Of a stretch of DNA of 64,000 bases, positions 27,439-43,022 are shown one piece after another (positions within the stretch are counted from its first letter, which is position 1; each line of letters begins with the position of its first letter). This stretch comes from a virus. A program made the position numbers and the translations under genes. The notes beneath the pieces are model-generated. The model did not search any database. It saw only the letters and a list, made by a program, of their open reading frames with translations, and was not told the origin of the DNA. The stretch is from IMG/VR virus record IMGVR_UViG_3300035698_010610, positions 26,315 to 90,314 of that record; one strand, 5' to 3'.

Positions 27439-28286
27439 TGGAAACCACGAAATCGGAACTACGCAACCGCGTTATCGCCCTCGCCCGTGACCTCGAAGAA
27501 CAGATCAACACGGCTGCGTTTCAAACCGAACGAGCCGACGGGCTGGCACAGGAGGTCGCTGGACTCACCACCGACCTCCGCACGCTGACGAACACCCTGT
27601 TTGAGTTGCGCCGAGCCGCCGCACAAGCAGAAGCCCAGACGAACGCTGACGCTGACCGCGACCGTGCTCGCGAACAACCGAAAGCACCGGCGCCAGAAAC
27701 CACCGGCCACGTCTCTGATGACTCCGGGGACGGCAGGCACGTCACCATCACGACCGGCCCATTCCGTTGCGTGGCGAGATACAAGCGGAAAGTCCTCGCC
27801 GAAAAGATCGGAAACATGCAGCAAGACCAGTTCCAAATCCAGGCGGCATACATCGCTTGCCAACGCCACCTGGAGATGGCCAAGCGGACCCGCGACCGAT
27901 GCAAGGCATTATACGAAGGCACGAAGGCGGCAAGATACGAAGACACCCTGAGAGCTTTTGTCACGCACGCCTACGAAGTGCCGCTGCTTGAATGGGTTCG
28001 CCAGCACCACAAGGCATACCTGGCGTGCGATCCCGGCGGCTGTGGAGTTGACTTCCGGAAAGCCATGCAATGCGTCCTCGCACTGGCAGGGGGCGCCGAC
28101 GCACGCTCGCCGCAACCCCCTGCCGAAGGCGCTTTGGATGCGCTCACTGCCACGCTGAAAGCAGCCGACGAACACCGAGACATTGCCAGCGACGTGCCGA
28201 CGCAAACGGAGGCGAAAGAAGGCGGATCGCCACACAGCGGCATCCCGTCAGCGCCGAACCCCGAAGGCCGGGAACTGGAGCGATGA
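27435..28286 (+). CDS. Coiled-coil hypothetical protein
   Basis: 283-aa ORF with heptads. Confidence 0.65.
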   Translation: MMETTKSELRNRVIALARDLEEQINTAAFQTERADGLAQEVAGLTTDLRTLTNTLFELRRAAAQAEAQTNADADRDRAREQPKAPAPETTGHVSDDSGDGRHVTITTGPFRCVARYKRKVLAEKIGNMQQDQFQIQAAYIACQRHLEMAKRTRDRCKALYEGTKAARYEDTLRAFVTHAYEVPLLEWVRQHHKAYLACDPGGCGVDFRKAMQCVLALAGGADARSPQPPAEGALDALTATLKAADEHRDIASDVPTQTEAKEGGSPHSGIPSAPNPEGRELER

Positions 28287-28353: not shown

Positions 28354-29667
28354 ATGCCCCTACCCGATTCGCTCGACTCCTCGGTGGTCCTCGACATAAC
28401 GCAGAACCGCGTCACCGTCACCACCGGCACACACCAGTCCACATTCCTCGACACGATCGAGGAGGCGGCGAACGCCGTCGCGCTGTGCCACGCAAAGGCA
28501 ATCCAACTGGAAGACACCATCCGCACGCTGACGGGACGGCGGGAGGAATTGCGGGGGCTCAACCGGCAACTCCAAGATGAAATCCGGCACCGCAAGGACA
28601 AGGCCGAGGAACTTCGCGCTGCCGTAGGGAAATCGCAGATCGCACACGGCAAAGCAACGACAATGGTTGGCCAACACAAAGAGACGATCCGCGCACTAGA
28701 AAAGCAACTGCACCCCCTCCGGGAGGCCAGGGCGCACGGCGATCCGCAGCGGTTCACCGTTGCGGTTAATCAGGACGAAAACAAAGTCAGCAATCAATAC
28801 GTGATCGATTGCGACTCGGAATTTGATGCCATGCAGATCGCCTTCGCATTAGACGGCGGCTGGGGAGCGGACGGAAACGCAACCGGGCTGCTTGAACTGG
28901 CGAGGCGGTATTGCATGACGACTCCAAACGCACAACCGGCAGCGACGATAGACTTGCTGCCCATCGACACGGTGGCTGGAGCGCTGGCGTTCGTGGACAA
29001 AGCACACAAGGGACCGCTGCGGCGATTGCACCGCCAGGCGATGGAGGTGGCTAAAACCTTGGCCGCTGCGTGTCGGCGAGGCATGGACTACCGCAAAGAA
29101 ACGGAAGCGTCGTTACAGAAGGGCGAAGCGGAAGCCAAGCGGTTGCAAGAAGTAGCCAAAATCCTGGTCGACGAAGTCAACTGGCGGAAAAACCACCACA
29201 ACGAATTCCTCAAAGAGGCCGCTGCCGACAACCAGTCGCGTGACACGGAGATCGCACGGCTGACCCGCCTTCTGGGTTTGCCGGGGCCGCGGTCCGCGAT
29301 AACAAGAGAGCTTGGCGAATGCCAACGCAACGCTGCTGAGTATTCGACGCAGCTTGCCCACGCCAAGAACGAGATCGCGACTTTGCGACACCGACTCCAG
29401 GTCGCGAACGAATTCGGGATGCAAGTCCAGCAACTACTCCAGGACTCCACTGCTTCCGTCCTGCCGCAGAAATGGGACGCGACACCGGATAACGTCATCG
29501 GTGCCTTGACCGCGACCTTATGGACTGCGGAAACCAACCGCGACCAACTGCTGGCGGCAGGGGACGCTCGCGACAAGGCAATTGACGCCGCTGACGACAT
29601 CGAGAATGACCGGGACGCCATTGCAGCCCAGCTCGCTGACGTGCAGCAAAAAGCCCGAAAGCCTTAA
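28354..29667 (+). CDS. Long coiled-coil hypothetical protein
   Basis: About 437-aa helical ORF, AAGGA RBS. Confidence 0.7.
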   Translation: MPLPDSLDSSVVLDITQNRVTVTTGTHQSTFLDTIEEAANAVALCHAKAIQLEDTIRTLTGRREELRGLNRQLQDEIRHRKDKAEELRAAVGKSQIAHGKATTMVGQHKETIRALEKQLHPLREARAHGDPQRFTVAVNQDENKVSNQYVIDCDSEFDAMQIAFALDGGWGADGNATGLLELARRYCMTTPNAQPAATIDLLPIDTVAGALAFVDKAHKGPLRRLHRQAMEVAKTLAAACRRGMDYRKETEASLQKGEAEAKRLQEVAKILVDEVNWRKNHHNEFLKEAAADNQSRDTEIARLTRLLGLPGPRSAITRELGECQRNAAEYSTQLAHAKNEIATLRHRLQVANEFGMQVQQLLQDSTASVLPQKWDATPDNVIGALTATLWTAETNRDQLLAAGDARDKAIDAADDIENDRDAIAAQLADVQQKARKP

Positions 29668-34053: not shown

Positions 34054-34986
34054 ATGACCGTATTGAAGATCACGCAAATCAAAGTCGATCAGAGCATTTT
34101 GGGACGGGCAACACTTGATGAAGGGTTGCTTGTTGAATACGAGGAATTGCGACGGACTGAGGAAGCCGTTTTCCCGCCCATCGTCGTATTCAAGGACACC
34201 GCCGAGAATTACTGGCTCGGCGACGGCAACCACCGCTTGCACGTTGAAAAGAAAATCGGCAACAACACGATAGACGTTGACCTCCGCGAAGGGTCGAAAT
34301 CAGACGCCCGATGGTTTGCTGCGGGCGCAAACCTCAACCACGGGCAGCGGCCGTCACGGGGCGACCGGTTGCACGCTATCCAGAATTTGCTGCTTGATCC
34401 TGCACACCAGAAGCGCCCGTTCGTTGCCATCGGCAAACAGTGCGGAGTATCCAAGCAGTATGTCGCCAAAGTTGCCAACGCACTCATTAAGGCTGGCAAA
34501 TTGAAGCCAGCAGCCGTCGGGAGAAAGACGGTTAAAATCACCACAGGCCAACATGCGGGAAAAACTTACGAGAAAGCATCGCCAGGGACCGGCGCGAAGG
34601 CCAAAAAAACAACAAGCCCGGCAACCGCAGCACCCAAGCCCAACGCAGCAAAGAAGAAGGACCAGCGGGGGCACGTTATTCCTGAATACCTCCTTGGCGT
34701 CTGGGCTGGCCGGTCCGTGGTGATGGACATGGTGACGGAACTGTCTGCGATCCCGGCCAAGGTGCAAAAGCTGACGGTGCATGCATCGGGTGCCGGGTCG
34801 ATGATCGAGGTCGGGACGGTGAAGGACTTGCTCGGCGAAGCCCGCACCCGCATCAAGAAGTCTGCCCCGTATGTAATTTGCTCCGACTGCCGCCCGAGCA
34901 ATCATGTGTGCAAGGGCTGCAAGCAATGCGACGGGAAGGGATGGTTGTCCGAAGACGAATATTTTGAATGGAAGCAGGAACACTAA
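34054..34986 (+). CDS. ParB-like nuclease domain, HTH and C-terminal Zn finger
   Basis: FPPIVVF...YWLGDGNHRL...GANLNHG; IGKQCGVSKQYVAKV; CSDC...CKQCDGKGW. Confidence 0.8.
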   Translation: MTVLKITQIKVDQSILGRATLDEGLLVEYEELRRTEEAVFPPIVVFKDTAENYWLGDGNHRLHVEKKIGNNTIDVDLREGSKSDARWFAAGANLNHGQRPSRGDRLHAIQNLLLDPAHQKRPFVAIGKQCGVSKQYVAKVANALIKAGKLKPAAVGRKTVKITTGQHAGKTYEKASPGTGAKAKKTTSPATAAPKPNAAKKKDQRGHVIPEYLLGVWAGRSVVMDMVTELSAIPAKVQKLTVHASGAGSMIEVGTVKDLLGEARTRIKKSAPYVICSDCRPSNHVCKGCKQCDGKGWLSEDEYFEWKQEH

Positions 34987-37900
34987 TGGCGACTCCGCAA
35001 GTTGAACTGCGGCCGTACCAGAGCGAAGCGGTCGTCAAATTATTCGAGGCGTTCCCGGACAACAACCGCATTCTTGTGTCCATGCCAACCGGTGTGGGCA
35101 AGACGGTTGTTGGGATGTACGCCGCGACGGTCTGGCCCGACGCTTGCGAGGCATTAGGGCTTCCGCCGAAAGTCTTGTGGTTGGCGCACCGCGAGGAGTT
35201 GGTTTTCCAGGCCGTCACCCAATTCCGCAACATGAGCGGCGAAGAGGCGGGCGTCGAAAAAGCGTACGACACGGTGACCAGCAGGCCGCTACTGGAACGC
35301 CCCCGCGTTGTTGCCGCGAGCATCCAGACGCTATTCTCCGAGGAGCGGCGGCTCCTGTTTGCCCCCGATGAATTCGGGTTGATCGTGATGGATGAATGCG
35401 TTGACGGCCTCGCGGCAGTAGAAACAGAACTTGGGACTATTCCACTCAGCGAAGCGGTGCGGCGTAAGGCCAAACGAGTGTTGACGCATGATGGAACATC
35501 TGCTAAGTTCGGTCGCATTGAGGCGTGGGCCAGTAAAGGCCGCCGGGCGGTGTTGCGGGTAGCGACATACGGTGGCACCATTCGCGTCACGGGGGAACAT
35601 CCAATATGGACACTGCGGGGATGGGTGGAAGCCCGGCACCTAAAGCCCGGCGACGCCGTTGTGCGTGCGGTTGCGGCGTATGGATACCGGCAGTCGACAC
35701 CAGGGGGCGACCGCGAAAGTGCGCCCCTGGTCATTCGACACCCAGAAGTCGCGAAGAATGGTCGGTTGAGTACGAAAAATTTAAGGCGTCACTGCCGCTT
35801 TGTGAGTGTGGCTGCGGCACTAGCGTTACGCCAAACGCGAGTACGCTATCACGGTTTATTAAATGGCGTGGCACGCGAAGCATTCCAAGGTATCGCAAAG
35901 GCCACGATAAGCGGCCGTCCGGGTGGGAGATCACGCTTACGCCTAACGAGCGGTCGGCGATTCTCGGGACGCTACTCGGCGACTTTAGCATCGGCTTACC
36001 GAACCCACGCAGTAAGAACCCCAGGCTATCCGGGAACCATTCAAGCAAGCAGACGGAGTGGGTTCGCCACAAGGCCGCTATCCTCCGGCGGCTGTCGCCA
36101 TCGGTTTCGTTTGCGGCCAATCCTGGGTACGGCGACCAGTTGTGTACGTTTCGGTCAAGTTGCCTCCCGTGTCTGTTGCCGATCTATGATCTCACCCGAC
36201 CGGACGGCGGCCCCAAAGTCATATCGCGGGCATGGCTTGACTCGCTGGGGCCACTGGGGCTCGCGTGGTGGATCTGCGATGACGGCAGTAGTTCCGCCGG
36301 ATGGCAGATTGCACTTCACACTGAGGGCTTTGACGACACCAGTATCAGGGCTGTGGCAATGTGGTTTCGAGCTAAATACGGCGAGGTACGGGTCGCCCAG
36401 TCACGCCGAGGCAATAAAACGGTTCACCTTCGCAAAGCGGTCGCCAGCAAGGTCGCGGCTGCCATCCGGCCGCACGTGCCGCCCTGCATGGCATATAAGC
36501 TGCGATACTGTCCTGTCGGTTGACCCTGACGGATCGCGTGAAGTCTACGACCTTGCTGTTGCCGACACGCACTGCTTTTTCGCCAATGGCATTCTCGTGC
36601 ATAATTGTCACCACGGCGTTGCCCCGGCGTGGCAAGAAGTCGCCGACTATTTCGACAAGGGGAGGCTGGTCGGGTTGACGGCTACCACGGATCGGGCCGA
36701 CGAAGTGTCGCTCGGCCAGATGTTCGGTTCAGTGCCGTTCCATTACTCCCTGCCCGATGCGATCAAAGACGGCTACCTGTCGAAGATCAAACAGGAGTAC
36801 ATCCGGGTCGAAAGCCTTGACTTTTCCGGCATCAAATTGGAAGACGGCGACCTGTCTGTGAAGGCGGTAGAGGATCGGATCAACCGCGAACAGACGATCC
36901 ATGAACTCTGTGCCCCGGTCGCCAAATTGGCGGGGGACCGGCAAACGATCATATTCACACCATCGGTCGGCTCGGCTGAGTCGGTTGCGGCGCTGATGTC
37001 GGCACGGTATAGCAAACGCGGTGCGGTCGCTGTCAGCGGTTCGACGAATCCAGACGACCGGAAAGCAGCGGTGGAAGCGTACCTCCGGGGCGACATTCAG
37101 TTTCTCGTGAATTGTGGTGTATTTCTGGAGGGCTTTGACGCCCCGAATACATCCTGCATCGTCATCGCTCGGCCGACTGCATCGCGGGCGCTGTACGCTC
37201 AGATGATCGGTCGCGGGTTGCGCGGCGGCTGGGCGTGCCCTATTGAAGGAAAAGAGGACTGCCTTGTCCTCGACTTGACTGGCAAGGCTGCGGACCACCG
37301 GTTGGTCGGCTCACCCGATTTGCTCGCTGGGAATTACGACAAAGCCGTAACGGATGAGATCAGACGGCGGATGGAGGAGAAGGGGGAGGACGGCGAACCG
37401 AACGACGTGGATGAGATCATTGCGGAGTGCGTCGCTTCGTCCGACGAGCTACGGAAAATGGCGTTCGTGAAAGTTGTTGCTGACGCCAAGCTGTCCCGGA
37501 AGACCATCGACCCGTTTTCGTTGCTGGATGTCGCCGAGGAGGCGTTGCCGGGCTGGTGGGACGCGAAACAACCACTGCCAGAACAGATCGACAAACTGGA
37601 GGCAGCGGGGATCAGACACGAGGGCGACTTCGACTACGCATCCGCCCAGAAGCTGTGCCACGAACTCGACGAACGGCGGGCAGCCGGGCTTTGCACCTAC
37701 AAACAGGCGAAGCAATTGGCGATCCGGGGTTTCGATCCGCACATGAGTTTCGACGCGGCGGGCGTTGTCCTTGACTACCTGGCAACCAGGCCGGGCGGGT
37801 TTGGAATGCAAGGCGAAGACTACAAGCGCAAGGGGTACGCGAAAAAACGCGGGCGGCTGGTGTCGTACGCCGAGGTGAAACACCTTCCCAGGTATTGCGT

Positions 37901-38078
37901 GCCGCCGGGCGTCAAGGTGGACGTGCGGGCGGGCGGCAGCGGCTGGAAGGAATTTCTTACCAAAAAGCGGACGGCATTTCACAAGCCGGACGAAACGCAG
38001 GGCGACCAGTGGTTGATCGAGCAAGGTGATTTTACACTGCGGGTCAGCAAGGATTACGTCACGGATCTGAAATCATAA
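34986..38078 (+). CDS. SF2 DEAD/DEAH-box helicase (intein-containing)
   Basis: LRPYQ, MPTGVGKT, DE|CHH after splicing, GLTAT, FLEGFDAP, YAQMIGRGLR. Confidence 0.93.
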   Translation: MATPQVELRPYQSEAVVKLFEAFPDNNRILVSMPTGVGKTVVGMYAATVWPDACEALGLPPKVLWLAHREELVFQAVTQFRNMSGEEAGVEKAYDTVTSRPLLERPRVVAASIQTLFSEERRLLFAPDEFGLIVMDECVDGLAAVETELGTIPLSEAVRRKAKRVLTHDGTSAKFGRIEAWASKGRRAVLRVATYGGTIRVTGEHPIWTLRGWVEARHLKPGDAVVRAVAAYGYRQSTPGGDRESAPLVIRHPEVAKNGRLSTKNLRRHCRFVSVAAALALRQTRVRYHGLLNGVAREAFQGIAKATISGRPGGRSRLRLTSGRRFSGRYSATLASAYRTHAVRTPGYPGTIQASRRSGFATRPLSSGGCRHRFRLRPILGTATSCVRFGQVASRVCCRSMISPDRTAAPKSYRGHGLTRWGHWGSRGGSAMTAVVPPDGRLHFTLRALTTPVSGLWQCGFELNTARYGSPSHAEAIKRFTFAKRSPARSRLPSGRTCRPAWHISCDTVLSVDPDGSREVYDLAVADTHCFFANGILVHNCHHGVAPAWQEVADYFDKGRLVGLTATTDRADEVSLGQMFGSVPFHYSLPDAIKDGYLSKIKQEYIRVESLDFSGIKLEDGDLSVKAVEDRINREQTIHELCAPVAKLAGDRQTIIFTPSVGSAESVAALMSARYSKRGAVAVSGSTNPDDRKAAVEAYLRGDIQFLVNCGVFLEGFDAPNTSCIVIARPTASRALYAQMIGRGLRGGWACPIEGKEDCLVLDLTGKAADHRLVGSPDLLAGNYDKAVTDEIRRRMEEKGEDGEPNDVDEIIAECVASSDELRKMAFVKVVADAKLSRKTIDPFSLLDVAEEALPGWWDAKQPLPEQIDKLEAAGIRHEGDFDYASAQKLCHELDERRAAGLCTYKQAKQLAIRGFDPHMSFDAAGVVLDYLATRPGGFGMQGEDYKRKGYAKKRGRLVSYAEVKHLPRYCVPPGVKVDVRAGGSGWKEFLTKKRTAFHKPDETQGDQWLIEQGDFTLRVSKDYVTDLKS
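35397..36605 (+). mobile_element. Intein (403 aa) inserted in helicase motif II
   Basis: Block A CVDG, block B RVTGEHPIW, blocks F/G VYDLAVADTHCFFANGILVHN followed by Cys+1. Confidence 0.92.
35606..36523 (+). CDS. LAGLIDADG homing endonuclease with N-terminal CxCGC repeats, encoded in an alternate frame inside the intein
   Basis: AILGTLLGDFSI, HSSKQTEWVRHK, LGPLGLAWWICDDGS, LHTEGF, IRPHVPPCMAYKL (LAGLIDADG_2/I-SceI-like); CACGC and CECGC. Confidence 0.88.
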   Translation: MDTAGMGGSPAPKARRRRCACGCGVWIPAVDTRGRPRKCAPGHSTPRSREEWSVEYEKFKASLPLCECGCGTSVTPNASTLSRFIKWRGTRSIPRYRKGHDKRPSGWEITLTPNERSAILGTLLGDFSIGLPNPRSKNPRLSGNHSSKQTEWVRHKAAILRRLSPSVSFAANPGYGDQLCTFRSSCLPCLLPIYDLTRPDGGPKVISRAWLDSLGPLGLAWWICDDGSSSAGWQIALHTEGFDDTSIRAVAMWFRAKYGEVRVAQSRRGNKTVHLRKAVASKVAAAIRPHVPPCMAYKLRYCPVG

Positions 38079-38096
38079 CCAAAGGCAGGCACTGCA

Positions 38097-38345
38097 ATGA
38101 CAAAGGCTACGCAACAGCGGGTTCCGGTAAGCGAAAAGGCCGTGTATCAGCGAATGACCCGGGCTTTGGCTCGACGCGGCCAGCAACTCTTCAGGCACCG
38201 GCGGGTGAAGGACGCCGAGCATACCGGCAGATTCTACACCGTCGACCTACGGCGGAACTGCATCGCCGATGTTGACGTTGATTTAGACAAACACGCCCGC
38301 GACCTTGGGGTGCTGAAACCCTGGGAGGAAATCCGGGTACGATGA
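38097..38345 (+). CDS. Small conserved hypothetical protein abutting array 1
   Basis: VSEKAVYQRMTRALA...GRFYTVD...DLDKHARDLGVLKPWE; stop codon is 2 nt before the first separator. Confidence 0.7.
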   Translation: MTKATQQRVPVSEKAVYQRMTRALARRGQQLFRHRRVKDAEHTGRFYTVDLRRNCIADVDVDLDKHARDLGVLKPWEEIRVR

Positions 38346-38347
38346 AC

Positions 38348-38905
38348 GGCTGTAACGGATTGGAGCGGGACGGACTGGACTGGAAAGGCAGGGAGCGGAA
38401 AGGGCAGGAAAGGAGCGGCTGTAACGGACCGGCGCGGCGTGAATTGGATTGGAAGGGGTCGGAAGGGACGGGACCGGCTGTAACGGAAGGGATCGGACAG
38501 GAACGGAAGAGACCGGAGCGGAGGGGCAAGGAAAGGATCGGACAGGCCGTAAAGGAGCGGAGTGGAAAGGATCGGATTGGATTGGAGTGGAATGGACCGG
38601 CTGGACCGGACTGGAGCGGACGGGATTAGAGCGGACCGGATCGGAATGGATCGGCTGTAACGGATCGGAGTGGAAAGGACCGGACCGGATGGGAGTGGCT
38701 CGGATTGGAGCGGCCGGACCGGCTTGAACCACCGTGCGTAACGGACTGGAACGGCTGGCCGTGGAGCGGAAAGGGCAGGAACGGCACGGCTGTAATGGAT
38801 CGGACGGGCATGGAAGGGAGCGGCTCGGAAGGGAATGGCCGTAGCGGCGTGGAAGGGAGTGGCTTGGAGCGGATTGGAATGGAGCGGAACGGAGCGGAGA
38901 GGCAG
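38348..38905 (+). repeat. Phased GGA-NN pentamer array 1 (putative guide-RNA array), 9 units
   Basis: About 92 pentamers GG(A>C/G)NN; GGC(T/C)GTA(A/G)(C/A/T) separators at 38348, 38417, 38476, 38545, 38653, 38788 and 38837. Confidence 0.92.
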
Positions 38906-38973
38906 GAGGGGCAATCGCACCCGTCAATGTTTGGCGGGGCACGGCAACTGCGTTTTACGAAAGGTTTGATACG

Positions 38974-39756
38974 ATGGCAAAGAAACCTGTGGCAAGTGGT
39001 AGCGGCAAGGGAGGCAACGGAAAAGGGCGGGTGGAAATCCAACCGCTCGACATGGACTACGTGGTCATCCGCATCGCGGGCGACTCACCACTGATGATGA
39101 ACAACAAAGCGGCCTGCGTCGAGGAGGTCAACGCCCGCTACTCATCGGTTGGCGGCGGGAAGGCGAAGGTGCCGAAGAAGGAAAAGACCATTGACTCAGT
39201 CTACCAAGGGGCTTTCTATACGCTCCCGAGCAGTCCGGGGCAACCGCCCGCGCCGAATGGACTGTACGGTATCCCCGCGAGCGGAATGAAGAAGTGCATC
39301 TGCTCCGCGATCCGTCCGGCCGGGTTCAGCGACAACACCACCATCGGCCTGATCGGCAAGAGTTTTCGCGTGCTGCCGGACGAAGGCGGGTTGATTCTCC
39401 TGCGTCACAACGGGTTCGCGATGGACACCCGCGCCGTGGCGGTCGGCACCACCGGCAAGATGCCGGAACTGCGCTATCGCCCAATTTTTCCCGAGTGGGA
39501 GTGCCACCTGCGGATTACGTTCAACCGCGCCGTGCTGTCGATTGAATCGTTGGGCAATCTCTTGCAGCATGCCGGGCAGTATATCGGCTGGGGAGAACTC
39601 CGCGCCGAGAAAAAGCAGGGCGAGTGCGGCGGGTTCGTCGTGACCGATGCCAAGCTGCCGAAGTGGGCGTCGGATGCGTACTGGAACGTCTCTGTCGACA
39701 AGATCGGTTTCCGTGTCAACGCGAAGAATCGCACGACGCGGCGGGCTAGTCGGTAA
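38974..39756 (+). CDS. RAMP/Cas7-like RNA-binding protein
   Basis: VVIRIAGDSPLMMN (beta1), YGIPASGMKKCI (cf. RAMP IPGSSLKG), RYRPIFPEWE, C-terminal G-rich loop GQYIGWGELRAEKKQGECGGF. Confidence 0.75.
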   Translation: MAKKPVASGSGKGGNGKGRVEIQPLDMDYVVIRIAGDSPLMMNNKAACVEEVNARYSSVGGGKAKVPKKEKTIDSVYQGAFYTLPSSPGQPPAPNGLYGIPASGMKKCICSAIRPAGFSDNTTIGLIGKSFRVLPDEGGLILLRHNGFAMDTRAVAVGTTGKMPELRYRPIFPEWECHLRITFNRAVLSIESLGNLLQHAGQYIGWGELRAEKKQGECGGFVVTDAKLPKWASDAYWNVSVDKIGFRVNAKNRTTRRASR

Positions 39757-39783
39757 TCACCCCACCACGGAGGACTCGCCACA

Positions 39784-40335
39784 ATGGCGAAGGCAAAGAA
39801 GAAAACGGAACTGGTCATCGGTTCGGGGTTTCACATTTCCCGCACTGAAGGCACGTCACTGATCGCGTTCATCAAGTCGCACTTCAAGGGCCGAGTGCCG
39901 AGGGGCAGTCCGGAAAAGCTGGTTGCGGCAGCCCGGCCTGCGACAAGCCCGATCCACTCGCTATTCGAGTGGAACGACAAGAAGGCGGCATTGCTGGAAC
40001 GCAAGCGGCGGGCAGAATACCTGCTGCGGGCCATTCAGCGCCGCGAGGTGGAGGTGACAGTTGGTTCCATACCGGGAAAAATCGTCACCGTCAGCCAGTC
40101 GATTGCCGTGAAACACAAGGGGCACCATGCTGTCATTTACGCGCAAGCTGGCGAACTGACGGCAACGGACATCAACTACGTTCTCGACCGCGCTCTGGTC
40201 GAGTTTCGGAGTTGGCTGAATCGTTACCGCAACTATGCCGAGTTTCGCAACCTGTTCGATCCGGTGATTGCCGAATTTGAAAAGGTGGAGGTGAAGATCG
40301 GTACATTCAGCGGGCGGCACAAAAAAACCGCCTAG
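39784..40335 (+). CDS. Conserved partner protein of the RAMP-like gene
   Basis: SPEKLVAAARPATSPIHSLFEWNDKKAA...RAEYLLRAI; C-terminal ALVEFRSWLNRYRNY; GGAGG RBS. Confidence 0.75.
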   Translation: MAKAKKKTELVIGSGFHISRTEGTSLIAFIKSHFKGRVPRGSPEKLVAAARPATSPIHSLFEWNDKKAALLERKRRAEYLLRAIQRREVEVTVGSIPGKIVTVSQSIAVKHKGHHAVIYAQAGELTATDINYVLDRALVEFRSWLNRYRNYAEFRNLFDPVIAEFEKVEVKIGTFSGRHKKTA

Positions 40336-40345
40336 TGCATTCCCC

Positions 40346-40380
40346 GCTGCCGCGCCGTGGCATTGCTGCGGCGTGGTGGC
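40346..40380 (+). other. G-U-rich RNA hairpin leading array 2
   Basis: GCTGCCGCGCCGTGGCA pairs with TGCTGCGGCGTGGTGGC using several G-U pairs, so the full stem forms only on the + strand RNA. Confidence 0.6.
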
Positions 40381-40682
40381 GGCTTTGTAATGGACCGGAG
40401 CGGAAGGGATCGGATAGGGGCGGCTCGGACCGGAATGGAGCGGAGCGGCTGTAACGGAGCGGCGTGGATCGGAGCGGCGTGGATTGGAGCGGATGGGACC
40501 GGACTGGAGCGGCTGTAAAGGAGCGGCGTGGATCGGACCGGAAGGGACAGGACTGGAGCGGCTGTAACGGAGCGGAGTGGATGGGACCGGAGAGGAGTGG
40601 ATTGGACCGGAGAGGACCGGCTGTAACGGAGCGGAATGGCCCGGAGTGGAGGGGCTCGGAGTGGAGTGGACCGGATTGGCTG
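40381..40682 (+). repeat. Phased GGA-NN pentamer array 2, 5 units
   Basis: About 50 pentamers; separators at 40381 (GGCTTTGTAAT), 40447, 40511, 40560 and 40619. Confidence 0.92.
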
Positions 40683-40697
40683 GACCGTCGCCTGGCA

Positions 40698-40754
40698 CCC
40701 GTCGTCGCTGCGGAAGGTTTGGAACACCACGACGCAGCGGCGGCGGGTTTTTTT
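40698..40754 (+). terminator. Intrinsic terminator closing array 2
   Basis: CCCGTCGTCGCTGCG...CGCAGCGGCGGCGGG followed by T7. Confidence 0.75.
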
Positions 40755-40782
40755 CAAACGTGTTTTGGGGATAATGAAGGGG

Positions 40783-41586
40783 ATGCCAAAGCACATCAGT
40801 GTCAGCCAAATATCGATGCATTCCAAGTGCGGCGAGCAATTCAGACGCCGCTACGAAGAGGGTGAAATTTGCCCGCCGGGCTTCGCGGCCTTGACCGGGA
40901 GCGGAGTTCATGCGGGCGCTGCTCACGCAATGGAGTGGAAGCGGGAGCATGGAGGGAACGTCAGCCCGGACGACGTTCGGGACGTTGCCGTGGCGGGTTT
41001 GGATGAACGCTTCGGTGCGGATGGAGCCATGCTGACTTCGGAGGAAACGGACCAGGGCGTGGCGGCATCGCTCGGAGCGGCGAGGGACCGCACCGCCGCG
41101 CTCGCTCACTTTTGGGGCTGCGTGGTTCAGCCGGAATACAACGCCCCGCAGTGGGTAGAGGAGCGATGGGAATTCGGATTGCCGAACGGGCAGACGTTGC
41201 TTGGCATCACGGACCTTGCAACGCCAGGGCTTGTGACGGATTGGAAGACCGGGCGGCGGAAATTGTCGCAGCGAGAGGCCGACACCTCATTGCAATTGAC
41301 AGCGTACGCTATCGCATACCGCCGCCGATACGGCGTGATGCCAAACGTCCGGCTCGACTGCCTCACCAGCAGGAAGCAAACCACGCGGACCGTGCTGAAC
41401 GCTTCACGGGGCATGACCCATGTTGAACAGTTCGCGGCGAGGTTGCGGGCGTTCACGAAGTCGGTAGCTTCCGGCTCGTTCGTTCCGTGCCTGCCGACGG
41501 AATGGTTCTGCTCAGAGAAATGGTGCGGGTATGCGAAGACGTGCCCCTATTACATTCCAGACCTTGAGGAAAAGGATGACGACTGA
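40783..41586 (+). CDS. PD-(D/E)XK (RecB/Cas4-like) exonuclease
   Basis: ISVSQISMHSKCG, GSGVH, LGITDL...VTDWKTG, LQLTAYA, C-terminal CSEKWCGYAKTC. Confidence 0.85.
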   Translation: MPKHISVSQISMHSKCGEQFRRRYEEGEICPPGFAALTGSGVHAGAAHAMEWKREHGGNVSPDDVRDVAVAGLDERFGADGAMLTSEETDQGVAASLGAARDRTAALAHFWGCVVQPEYNAPQWVEERWEFGLPNGQTLLGITDLATPGLVTDWKTGRRKLSQREADTSLQLTAYAIAYRRRYGVMPNVRLDCLTSRKQTTRTVLNASRGMTHVEQFAARLRAFTKSVASGSFVPCLPTEWFCSEKWCGYAKTCPYYIPDLEEKDDD

Positions 41587-42479
41587 TGGCGAAACAAGCG
41601 ACAGCGAAACCGGTAACGGCCATTGCGCTGATCGGGCGGGACCGAACGCAGGTCGGAGCGTTGTTCAACAAAGTGGCCCCGACGCTGGCCCGTATCCTAC
41701 CGGACGGCGTTGACGCCAAGCGGCTCGGCGAGATCGCCATTGTCACGCTCCGCAAAACGCCGAAACTCTCAGTCTGCACGCAGGCGAGTTTCTTCGGAGC
41801 CATCGTTGAGTGCGGCAAGCTGGGGCTTTACCCGGACGTACGGGGGCACGCTTTCCTGATCCCGCGACGGACCGGACCGATCAACCCAGCGACCAACGAG
41901 AAAACCCATGAGGCCCATTTCCAGCCCGGCTACCAGGGCCTTCTGGAATTGTGCCGCCGCAGCGGGATGCTGACGGTATTTGAATGCCGCCCCGTTTACG
42001 CAAAGGACGAGTTTTTCTACGAGTACGGAACGCAGCCGTTCATGAAACACACCCCGTTCCGCGACGGCCCGGCTGGCGAGTTGGTCGCAGCATACGCGAC
42101 GTGCATTCTGAAGGGCGCACCACGAGCGACATTCCATGTTGTCGAAGCGTGGGAGATCGAACAACTCAAACAGTCGATCAAGCCGAGGGGCGATTCCCCG
42201 TGGCTGCACCCGCTGCATCAGCAGGCGATGTGGATGAAGACGGCGGCCATCAGGTTGCTCAAATACCTGCCGTGGTCGACCGAACAGATGCAGCGTGCCG
42301 TTGCGCTCGACGAGATGGCCGACGCGAACATCGCGCAGCACCTCGGCGAGGACTACGCCGAAGCACTGGATGACTTTTCGCAAGGCGAGGCCGATGGAAT
42401 GGAGGTGACGGCGGACGACCTTGTCGATGCCGAATTCACCGCAACAAAGGACAGCAAGCCGGAGGAAGGGGCGAAATGA
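41586..42479 (+). CDS. recT: RecT family ssDNA-annealing recombinase
   Basis: PKLSVCTQASFFGAIVECGKLGL..GHAFLIP, FQPGYQGLLELCRRSG, SPW...AMWMKTAAIRLLKYLP. Confidence 0.92.
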   Translation: MAKQATAKPVTAIALIGRDRTQVGALFNKVAPTLARILPDGVDAKRLGEIAIVTLRKTPKLSVCTQASFFGAIVECGKLGLYPDVRGHAFLIPRRTGPINPATNEKTHEAHFQPGYQGLLELCRRSGMLTVFECRPVYAKDEFFYEYGTQPFMKHTPFRDGPAGELVAAYATCILKGAPRATFHVVEAWEIEQLKQSIKPRGDSPWLHPLHQQAMWMKTAAIRLLKYLPWSTEQMQRAVALDEMADANIAQHLGEDYAEALDDFSQGEADGMEVTADDLVDAEFTATKDSKPEEGAK

Positions 42480-42973
42480 ACGATGCAGACCCGCTGAACC
42501 TGTCAGCCGAAGAACTCCACGCATTGCAGGTCGTTGGACGCACGGCGAAACACAAACGCAACGACCTTGAGCCCGGCAAAGCATACCCGGTCGACCTCTG
42601 GGTTCGGATCAAAGGGTCGCTTGCCGTTGGCACCGACTCCACCTCCACCACGACGGCGAAGCCGAAACCCGAAGACTTGCTGGCCGCGATCCTGTCATCC
42701 CTGCCGGACCCCGCCCGAGCCAACCTGCTCGACGTGATGAACGGCTGGGAAGGCACCCTGCCGGAACCGGAAGAAGGCTGGCTGGCGGCGGCGAAAACGT
42801 ACGTCACCGCGTACGGGGAAACGAAGACCGGCAGCCGCAAAGGGTCAGTGCGCGGAGCGTTCGAGGTCGGCGTGATCTCGGCGGCAGAATTGACCCCACA
42901 AACCAAGGCTAAAGTGGAGAACGCGACCCGGCTAATTACGTTCGACGACGATGAGAAGAAGGCAACTGCGTGA
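42476..42973 (+). CDS. Hypothetical protein
   Basis: ATGA overlap with recT. Confidence 0.65.
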   Translation: MNDADPLNLSAEELHALQVVGRTAKHKRNDLEPGKAYPVDLWVRIKGSLAVGTDSTSTTTAKPKPEDLLAAILSSLPDPARANLLDVMNGWEGTLPEPEEGWLAAAKTYVTAYGETKTGSRKGSVRGAFEVGVISAAELTPQTKAKVENATRLITFDDDEKKATA

Positions 42974-43022
42974 CCGCCGCGTGAGCGGTCTGAGGAAACT
43001 GGCATTTGTGAAGGAGACTGCG

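What the first reader, a model, noticed from the sequence alone, without database searches (positions are those of the whole stretch)
38357..40677. Variable dinucleotides read like codon positions 1-2 of protein-coding targets; one unit spells a Walker A motif
Seen: I extracted NN from each unit, reverse-complemented it and inserted one skipped base (NNx), which gives protein-like strings (choosing among ambiguous residues). 40569-40618 gives GGx TCx GGx AAx ACx TCx GGx CAx ACx GCx = G-S-G-K/N-T-S-G-H/Q-T-A (P-loop GSGKT). 40392-40446 gives AA(I/M)G(E/D)AY(D/E)LAG; 38797-38836 gives (I/M)L(E/D)AL(I/M)R(E/D); 38554-38598 gives G(I/M)T(K/N)(K/N)(E/D)(L/F)TA; 38426-38475 gives GRL(D/E)L(K/N)(K/N)TAG. 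Hand counts of NN are strand-asymmetric (about 15 TC vs 3 GA, about 17 CC vs 2 GG, about 25 GC), as expected if the complements are Ala/Gly/Asp/Glu codon starts. Inference: gapped recognition that skips the wobble base would make targeting robust to synonymous escape, for example against competing phages. The decoding is post hoc and could be chance.
Basis: inference. Interest (0 to 1): 0.88.

Follow-up and report, generated by a model that had tools for sequence, protein, structure and literature searches.

The report
Phage VIPR guide arrays, GGA type
The five-base repeats are guide RNAs of a phage VIPR system, a CRISPR-like DNA-silencing weapon first described in 2026; their variable letters do resemble the first two letters of codons, but the "Walker A" reading is not supported.

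Summary
The sequence is as described. Fourteen units of 8-12 GG[A]NN pentamers, separated by a 9-nt GGCTGTAAC, form two + strand arrays around two genes of a complete 90-kb salt-lake phage.

Here the complement of NN fits codon positions 1-2 better than any other phase or strand. The same phase wins in 13 of 14 related arrays.

No natural target was found. The "Walker A" string is weak. One of its two exact gapped matches is in frame, but in an AMP-binding enzyme, and two hits is about chance.

Departures from the published type: GGA instead of GGY, and no structured tail.

The scan has found VIPR loci on other DNA before. Verdict: new member of a known kind.

The parts
38348..38905 (+). vrRNA array 1. 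It holds nine units: U1 38357-38416, U2 38426-38475, U3 38485-38544, U4 38554-38598, U5 38608-38652, U6 38662-38711, U7 38743-38787 (after a degenerate stretch 38712-38742), U8 38797-38836, U9 38846-38905. Each unit has 8-12 GG[A]NN pentamers. Each is preceded by a 9-nt separator, GGCTGTAAC or a variant (GGCCGTAAA, GGCTGGACC, GGCTGTAAT, GGCCGTAGC).
38974..39756 (+). vipr candidate, 260 aa, a Cas7-like RAMP. The thumb hairpin includes R169. The G-loop is around E208-F221.
39784..40335 (+). vap-like accessory gene, 183 aa, fold unknown.
   Evidence: tblastn finds relatives in 9 related loci; in the two loci I read it lies downstream of the vipr homologue. No Pfam family. phrog_15946, unknown function. 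AF2 pLDDT 72.6, no PDB match with E <= 0.001.
40344..40382 (+). 18-pair hairpin between the vap stop codon and array 2.
40388..40686 (+). vrRNA array 2. It holds five units: U10 40392-40446, U11 40456-40510, U12 40520-40559, U13 40569-40618 (the 'Walker A' unit), U14 40628-40677. It starts with GGCTTTGTAAT and ends with GGCTGGACC.
40697..40755 (+). Intrinsic terminator on the + strand: hairpin 40697-40748 followed by U7.
   Evidence: -40.1 kcal/mol, z -2.39

Best explanation
The region is a phage VIPR (Viral Interference Programmable Repeat) locus. Its parts are a vipr gene (38974-39756), a vap-like gene (39784-40335), and two co-oriented arrays that encode 9 + 5 guide RNAs (vrRNAs).

By homology with the SUSP1 system, one Vipr protomer binds each pentamer. 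The constant GGA is flipped out and held by the thumb and G-loop. The two variable bases are presented for pairing with a DNA strand in which every third base is skipped. A guide of n pentamers therefore reads 2n bases over 3n-1 bp.

The skipped base falls on the codon wobble position of protein-coding targets, most likely in competing mobile elements. Binding silences transcription.

Shown here: the repeat anatomy, the RAMP fold, homology to SUSP1 Vipr, the conserved synteny, the + strand terminator, and the codon-1-2-like composition of the complement of NN.

Inferred: transcription and processing of the units, the one-base skip in this GGA-type clade, and the identity of the targets.
For: Anatomy: 141 phased pentamers in 14 units, with unit lengths stepping by 5 and not by 3.

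Protein: the model resembles Cas7/Csm3 only. hhalign of 27 homologues against SUSP1 agp039 gives 94.6%, E 7.3e-8. agp039 carries 9 of the 10 residues named in the cryo-EM paper at the stated numbers. SUSP1 R138, D177 and R179 align with window R169, E208 and R210; these are invariant among the 27 homologues.

SUSP1's own GGTNN arrays flank its gene in the same way.

The same architecture occurs in other IMG/VR phages. A blind pattern scan found arrays that sit next to Vipr homologues.

A + strand terminator follows array 2.

NN composition: phase 1-2 of the complementary strand is the best of 8 models in the window. Phase 1-2 is also best in pooled relatives, in 13 of 14 loci.

In 38 of 64 exact 8-NN core matches in IMG/VR the gap falls on codon position 3 of the longest open frame. 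After I collapsed look-alike hits by hand this is 23 of 41, against one third expected.

There is no self-target: the best own-genome matches equal those of shuffles.

The depletion of NN = GG and GA is not a rule of the clade. GGAGA and GGAGG are among the commonest pentamers in L107, and GGAGA in L070 and L065.

There is no excess of adjacent identical NN (8 against 11.5 +/- 3.2) or of repeated 3-NN words (4 against 4.3), so slippage does not explain the strings.
Against: Position 3 is A in 117 of 141 pentamers and never T. In SUSP1 the pocket for that base is reported to exclude purines. A GGY>GGA construct is listed among the substitutions tested, and the text says that perturbing GGY abolished silencing. 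RNA recognition must therefore differ here.

There is no structured tail, only 9 nt between guides.

No natural target was found. The local database of 1.4 Mb shows no excess over shuffles at skip 0, 1 or 2. One 9-NN scan gave 0 hits. Three 8-NN core scans gave 16, 24 and 24 loci with at most 4 of 8, 4 of 6 and 4 of 8 flanking bases matching, which is chance level. One 10-NN metagenome scan gave 2 hits, about the number I expect by chance.

The composition signal is small, about 0.035-0.07 bit per NN over the alternatives. Units within a locus show no bimodality of strand preference (z 0.17).

The wobble placement of chance hits follows from the same composition, so it is not independent evidence.
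Confidence: 0.85

Rival explanations
1. It is a VIPR locus, but the codon-like look of NN comes from constraints of the RNA or of Vipr binding, for example a preference for a pyrimidine before GG or avoidance of G runs. On this view it does not come from coding targets, and the decoded peptides are chance.
For: Position 5 is 74% pyrimidine in the window. The likelihood margins are modest. No target was found.
Against: The bias is not constant in the clade. Position 5 pyrimidine content ranges from about 46% to 74% across loci (my percentages from the counts). The favoured strand flips between loci: the window scores +19.9 bits and L009 +40.1, while L070 scores -14.3 and L107 -9.2. GG and GA are common NN in relatives. 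Phase 1-2 beats the phase-averaged coding model in 13 of 14 loci.
Confidence: 0.1
2. It is a VIPR locus whose GGA-type Vipr uses a different target spacing, skipping 0, 2 or 3 bases, so the codon reading does not apply.
For: The position-3 pocket and the G-loop differ from SUSP1: there is a 5-residue insertion, W178 is replaced by L209 and C173 by I204. The skip length has been measured only for type II systems.
Against: With any skip other than 1 (mod 3) the NN of one guide would cycle through codon phases. Yet the fixed phase 1-2 model beats the phase average by 9.3 bits in the window and 51.4 bits in relatives.
Confidence: 0.04
3. The arrays are protein-coding. Candidates are the + strand ORF 38342-38629, whose ATG overlaps the upstream TGA, or the long - strand ORFs; either would give G-x-[DE]-[RW]-x or S-x-P-x-x pentapeptide repeats.
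For: Open frames of 95-382 aa cross the arrays on both strands.
Against: (NNTCC)n cannot contain a stop codon, and (GGANN)n almost cannot, so these frames are open by construction. Unit lengths differ by multiples of 5 (49, 54, 59, 64, 69), which would shift the frame. In relatives GG and the period are conserved while NN is free.
Confidence: 0.01

Closest known systems
VIPR type II of Escherichia phage SUSP1 (Vipr + vap1 + vrRNAs; bioRxiv 10.64898/2026.04.26.720920 and 10.64898/2026.04.26.720927)
   Same: A small RAMP protein homologous to the window's 260-aa protein. Arrays of GG-N-NN pentamers on the coding strand on both sides of the genes. A second small gene. A phage carrier. Guides of 9-16 repeats there and 8-12 here.
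   Different: The constant triplet is GGA here (A 117, C 19, G 5, T 0 of 141) and GGY there. Guides are separated by 9 nt here, against a roughly 40-nt tail with a pseudoknot there. There are 14 guides here and 4 there. Vipr is 260 aa with a 5-residue G-loop insertion here, 195 aa there. The accessory protein here has no detectable similarity to a known fold.
Other VIPR types and non-canonical arrays: 'staggered arrays with overlapping vrRNAs' and NNNGG/YNNNG/NNNNG repeats (720920); GAC/NN, CAC/NN, WGT/NN, TGH/NN (bioRxiv 10.64898/2026.10.21.760802, passages)
   Same: Tail-less arrays in which one guide ends where the next begins, and constant triplets other than GGY next to Vipr-like folds.
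   Different: GGA/NN is not named in any text I could read. A full-text search for GGANN, ANNGG, NNGGA and GGMNN found no VIPR paper.
Cas7 backbone of class 1 CRISPR effectors (Csm3, Cmr4, Cas7-11, type VII Cas7)
   Different: The period is 5 nt with 2 paired bases, against 6 nt with 5 paired. In the stretch I read there is no CRISPR repeat-spacer array, and the genes I screened (34968-42973) are a helicase, a nuclease, RecT and hypotheticals.

Membership tests
VIPR system | Vipr protein with the RAMP fold (RRM core, G-loop, thumb) | tested here: met
VIPR system | Sequence homology to an experimentally studied Vipr | tested here: met
   hhalign of A1 against SUSP1 agp039: 94.6%, E 7.3e-8, 66 columns. 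MAFFT gives 26% identity with 18 columns invariant. agp039 carries H17, K33, E71, M72, R138, C173, D177, W178 and R179 as numbered in the cryo-EM paper; position 175 is V, not T.
VIPR system | Residues that hold G1 and G2 of the repeat (SUSP1 R138, D177, W178) | tested here: inconclusive
   R138 aligns with R169 and D177 with E208, both invariant in 27 homologues. W178 aligns with L209, so it is not kept. This rests on alignment only.
VIPR system | Tandem pentamers with constant GG and hypervariable NN, 9-16 per guide | tested here: met
   14 units of 8-12 pentamers. GG is present in 137 of 141. All 16 NN occur. Relatives have mostly 8-17 per run (range 6-22; L064 is one unbroken run of 44).
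VIPR system | Pyrimidine at repeat position 3 (GGY) | tested here: not met
   A 117, C 19, G 5, T 0. A also dominates in 12 of the 13 related loci tabulated before the script stopped. The paper allows 'a related consensus' and NNNGG repeats, so this bears on the type and not on the family.
VIPR system | Invariant structured 3' tail (type II) | tested here: not met
   Only a 9-nt separator lies between guides. The paper describes tail-less staggered arrays in other types.
VIPR system | Adjacent accessory (vap) gene | tested here: met
   The 183-aa gene has relatives in 9 related loci by tblastn. In L013 and L116, which I read, it lies downstream of the vipr homologue. Its function is not established.
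VIPR system | Guides match natural targets with a one-base skip on the wobble position | tested here: inconclusive
   No credible target was found in the searches I could run. Composition favours phase 1-2.
VIPR system | No self-targeting | tested here: met
   With the arrays masked, the best own-genome one-base-skip matches are 0.67-0.81 of NN bases. Shuffled guides give means of 0.68-0.81.
VIPR system | vrRNAs are expressed and co-purify with Vipr | not testable with these tools
   No RNA run holds the stretch. This needs the bench.
CRISPR-Cas class 1 | Repeat-spacer array with repeats of about 25-40 nt, plus cas1/cas2 or other cas genes | tested here: not met
   Tandem Repeats Finder on 36000-43000 lists only rows that lie inside the two arrays. 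I gave seven ORFs between 34968 and 42973 to Pfam or PHROGs: they are a helicase, a nuclease, RecT and hypotheticals. The rest of the genome was not screened for cas genes.

The most novel reading that the evidence does not exclude
This could be an undescribed VIPR subtype in three respects. First, the constant triplet is GGA, a purine at a position where the solved SUSP1 pocket sterically excludes purines. Second, guides are capped by only 9 nt (GG-N-N-G-TA-R-N) instead of a structured tail, which implies a different way of ending the filament and processing the array. Third, in this phage nearly all guides read antisense to coding strands, which would allow mRNA as well as DNA to be bound.
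Probability: 0.3. Interest if true: 0.55.

Novelty: new member of a known kind. Interest (0 to 1): 0.35.

Why it matters
The locus adds a 14-guide VIPR system from a complete salt-lake phage to a family known only since 2026.

It shows from composition alone that the wobble-skipping codon register appears to hold in a clade whose repeat scaffold is GGA rather than GGY.

That scaffold is a natural counterpart of the GGY>GGA construct listed among the substitutions tested in SUSP1, where the text says that perturbing GGY abolished silencing. The clade is therefore a ready-made test of how Vipr reads the third repeat base, and of how tail-less arrays are cut into guides.

Tried and rejected
Ideas held before the literature search, all from my own recall and dropped once VIPR fitted:
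- A TRAP-like ring protein binding triplets at 5-nt spacing.
- A CsrA sponge of GGA motifs.
- A Shine-Dalgarno decoy.
- An R-loop replication origin (GC skew 0.31 in the 38001-39000 window).
- Centromere-like iterons.

Rfam gave no match with E <= 1 in 37500-41500.

Target searches that led nowhere:
- The window's 14 guides against 1.4 Mb of fetched loci plus the phage genome. Skips 0, 1 and 2 equal shuffled guides. Skip 3 finds only the arrays themselves.
- 103 guides of 14 related arrays against the same database. The mismatch distributions for skips 0, 1 and 2 and for shuffles are alike.
- U13 with 9 NN in IMG/VR: 0 hits.
- 8-NN cores of U1, U10 and U9 in IMG/VR: 16, 24 and 24 loci, none extending beyond chance.
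- U13 with 10 NN in JGI metagenomes: 2 hits. No other guide matches those two contigs.
- My chance expectations (about 20 hits for 16 fixed bases in IMG/VR, about 1-2 for 20 fixed bases in the metagenome set) rest on guessed database sizes.

Other steps without result:
- Per-unit strand bimodality: none (z 0.17).
- The search for related loci with the single 260-aa protein in IMG/VR found nothing. With the alignment it found 7 loci in IMG/VR and 1 in genomes, a Spongiibacteraceae MAG contig.
- tblastn against GenBank phages found only distant relatives, in 5 Gordonia phage records and one cyanophage.
- The vap-like protein has no Pfam family, no PDB fold match with E <= 0.001, and only 2 word-index homologues.
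- No RNA holder is listed for the stretch.
- Contigs of three other salt-lake runs cover parts of the arrays with no differences. Parts without cover say nothing.
- Supplementary files and figures of the four preprints were not visible. They may already show a GGA-type logo, the staggered array layout, and this clade's type number.
Full report
WHAT IS THERE.

The window is part of a complete 90,314-bp IMG/VR phage record with direct terminal repeats. The stretch occurs in salt-lake metagenomes.

Between a helicase gene with an intein (34968-38078) and a PD-(D/E)XK exonuclease / RecT pair (40783-42479) lie the following features, all on the + strand:
- a small ORF (38097-38345)
- array 1 (38348-38905)
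- a 260-aa gene (38974-39756)
- a 183-aa gene (39784-40335)
- an 18-pair hairpin (40344-40382)
- array 2 (40388-40686)
- an intrinsic terminator (hairpin 40697-48, then U7; -40.1 kcal/mol)

The arrays are strictly phased pentamers, GG-[A]-N-N. They fall into 14 units of 8-12 pentamers, separated by a 9-nt motif, GGCTGTAAC or close variants. Unit-plus-separator lengths are 49, 54, 59, 64 and 69 nt, so they step by 5 and not by 3.

Long open frames cross the arrays on both strands. They are open by construction, because (NNTCC)n cannot hold a stop codon.

CHECK OF THE OBSERVATION.

I parsed 141 pentamers; 137 begin with GG. Position 3 is A 117, C 19, G 5, T 0. Position 4 is nearly even. Position 5 is C 63, T 41, G 20, A 17.

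The NN counts are GC 25, CC 15, TC 15, GA 3, GG 2. The strand asymmetry is significant (chi-square 23.9, 6 df, my arithmetic).

I then asked whether NN looks like a particular codon phase. With dinucleotide frequencies from 79 long ORFs of the phage itself, 'reverse complement of NN = codon positions 1-2' scores -522.3 bits. The other scores are uniform -548.0, genome dinucleotides -543.3, and the five other phase/strand models -549.0 to -576.2.

A second model let each unit choose its strand and took codon statistics from 328 ORFs of the phage and related loci. For the window, phase 1-2 scores -532.5, phase 2-3 -541.1, phase 3-1 -558.4 and the phase average -541.8.

For 14 related arrays (1081 NN after trimming constant end pentamers), the scores are -4286.5, -4324.3, -4451.3 and -4337.9. 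Phase 1-2 beats the phase average in 13 of 14 loci.

The signal is real but small per dinucleotide. It is what a fixed three-base target register predicts. Any skip other than one base (mod 3) would mix the phases.

- G-run avoidance is not a rule of the clade. GGAGA and GGAGG are among the commonest pentamers in L107, and GGAGA in L070 and L065.
- Slippage leaves no trace. There are 8 adjacent identical NN against 11.5 +/- 3.2 in shuffles, and 4 repeated 3-NN words against 4.3.

THE WALKER A UNIT.

U13 (40569-40618) does decode to G-S-G-[KN]-T-S-G-[HQ]-T-A. A GxGK[ST]-compatible string arises in 1.8% of 5000 NN shuffles and GK[ST] in 19-21%. The motif was picked after the fact, and the first glycine of a true GxxxxGK[ST] would lie outside the guide.

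Nine NN of the gapped pattern have no match in IMG/VR. All ten have two matches in the JGI metagenome collection.

One match (L184) is in frame and reads GSGKTSGHTA. The gene is an AMP-binding (adenylate-forming) enzyme (PF00501, E 3e-35) on a 69% GC contig.

The other match (L183) has the gap on codon position 1, in a bactofilin/hexapeptide-like protein.

Two hits is about what I expect by chance for 20 fixed bases in a collection of that size. This is a rough inference, because the size is guessed. The string therefore does not mark a P-loop gene, and I do not regard either hit as a target.

WHAT IT IS.

A blind scan of IMG/VR for the separator plus repeats, and for eight phased GGA triplets, found large diverse arrays of the same kind. 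By tblastn they sit next to homologues of the 260-aa protein.

In the loci I read, the order is the same: protein, array, 183-aa homologue, array. GG and the period are conserved and NN is free. The separator is lineage-specific but always one base short of two pentamers: GGCTG-TA[AG]T, GGCCG-TAAA, GGACG-TAAC, GGCGG-TAGC, GGCAG-GCGC.

A full-text search for 'pentanucleotide repeats', 'phage' and 'GGA' led to the bioRxiv preprint 10.64898/2026.04.26.720920. It describes VIPR systems:
- The parts are a minimal RAMP protein (Vipr), an accessory gene (vap), and vrRNAs made of 9-16 GGY/NN pentamers.
- The NN bases pair with double-stranded DNA while one target base in three is skipped.
- The skipped base usually falls on the codon wobble position.
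- The natural targets lie in competing phages and satellites.

The companion cryo-EM preprint 10.64898/2026.04.26.720927 shows one protomer per pentamer. The thumb and G-loop sequester GGY, and a pocket takes the single skipped target base.

A third preprint, 10.64898/2026.10.15.759431, argues that the wobble register blocks escape by synonymous mutation (passages).

MEMBERSHIP.

I located the SUSP1 locus in GenBank record NC_028808. agp039 (195 aa) and agp038 are flanked by GGTNN arrays with hairpin tails on their coding strand.

agp039 carries H17, K33, E71, M72, R138, C173, D177, W178 and R179 at the numbers used in the cryo-EM paper. It is therefore the studied Vipr.

The profile of the window's family aligns to it with 94.6% probability (E 7.3e-8). 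MAFFT agrees over the thumb and G-loop. The correspondences are:
- R138 with R169, D177 with E208, R179 with R210. All three are invariant in the 27 homologues.
- W178 with L209, C173 with I204, V175 with W206.
- The G-loop here carries five extra residues.

The 183-aa gene has relatives in 9 related loci. In the two I read it lies downstream of the vipr homologue. It has no recognisable family or fold.

None of the guides matches the phage's own genome better than shuffled guides do.

DIFFERENCES FROM THE PUBLISHED TYPE.

Position 3 is a purine. In SUSP1 that base sits in a pocket said to exclude purines. GGY>GGA is listed among the substitutions tested, and the text says that perturbing GGY abolished silencing.

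In 12 of the 13 related loci tabulated before the script stopped, A dominates position 3. The distant L141 (25% identity) uses GGC.

There is no structured tail. The papers mention 'staggered arrays with overlapping vrRNAs', NNNGG-type repeats, and other non-canonical triplets such as GAC/NN. GGA/NN is not named in the text I could read or search. The figures and supplements that would settle this were closed.

TARGETS.

Exact-match scans were the only large-scale search open to me, and I could scan 4 of the 14 guides. None gave a credible target.

Of 64 exact 8-NN core matches in IMG/VR, 38 have the gap on position 3 of the longest open frame. After I collapsed hits with identical flanks by hand this is 23 of 41, about p 0.002 against one third (my arithmetic). 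This follows from the same composition signal, so it is not independent.

The small local database shows nothing.

Contigs of three other salt-lake runs, dated 2017-2018, carry parts of both arrays without a single difference. The guides were therefore stable over those samples.

VERDICT.

The reading 'NN = codon positions 1-2, wobble skipped, aimed at rival phages' is the published VIPR mechanism. Here it is backed by membership tests and by composition, but not by a found target. The Walker A claim is not supported.

The scan has met VIPR loci on other DNA several times. I file this as a new member of a known kind, with a GGA scaffold and tail-less separators that deserve a look in the closed supplements.

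Noticed in passing
window 38342-38629: A 95-aa + strand ORF starts with an ATG that overlaps the TGA of the upstream gene (ATGA) and runs through four and a half guide units. Long - strand ORFs (228, 219, 382 aa) also cross the arrays. They are most likely artefacts of a repeat that cannot encode stop codons.
   Followed up: partly
separators in the window (for example 38348-38356) versus L134 (SUSP1) 27860-27880 and 29160-29185, - strand: The 9-nt separators of this clade share G-TA-R (GGCTGTAAC, GGCTGTAGT, GGCGGTAGC). The SUSP1 tails begin with similar letters after the last pentamer. The separator may be a tail cut down to its first bases. The resemblance is weak.
   Followed up: no
L009 10420-10490 (- strand), between the array and the next gene: An A/C-rich tandem repeat of about 11 nt fills the gap between the end of the guide array and the ribosome-binding site of the downstream gene. 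Shorter A/C-rich leaders stand at the same place in L116 and L070.
   Followed up: no
run X1, loose ends at window 38694, 38812 and 40584: Short contigs of the source salt-lake run carry other GGANN arrays with a different separator. At least one more VIPR-bearing phage therefore lives in the same lake.
   Followed up: no
L141 4103-4822: A distant homologue of the 260-aa protein (25% identity) sits next to a GGC-type (GGY) array. The third repeat base thus tracks the protein lineage.
   Followed up: partly
IMG/VR loci L018-L133: Many viral contigs hold short runs of 8-10 pentamers made only of GGAAG, GGAAA and GGAGA, or pure (GGAAT)n and (GGATT)n repeats. I did not check whether any of these are guides.
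   Followed up: no
window: orientation of the guides: In this phage and in L009, L136 and L137 the guides favour pairing with the coding strand (+19.9, +40.1, +31.3 and +14.8 bits). L070, L107 and L135 favour the other strand (-14.3, -9.2, -8.8 bits).
   Followed up: partly
window 34968-38078: The upstream helicase gene is interrupted by an intein (Pfam Intein_splicing, residues 185-546). A long overlapping ORF lies in another frame at 35606-36523.
   Followed up: no
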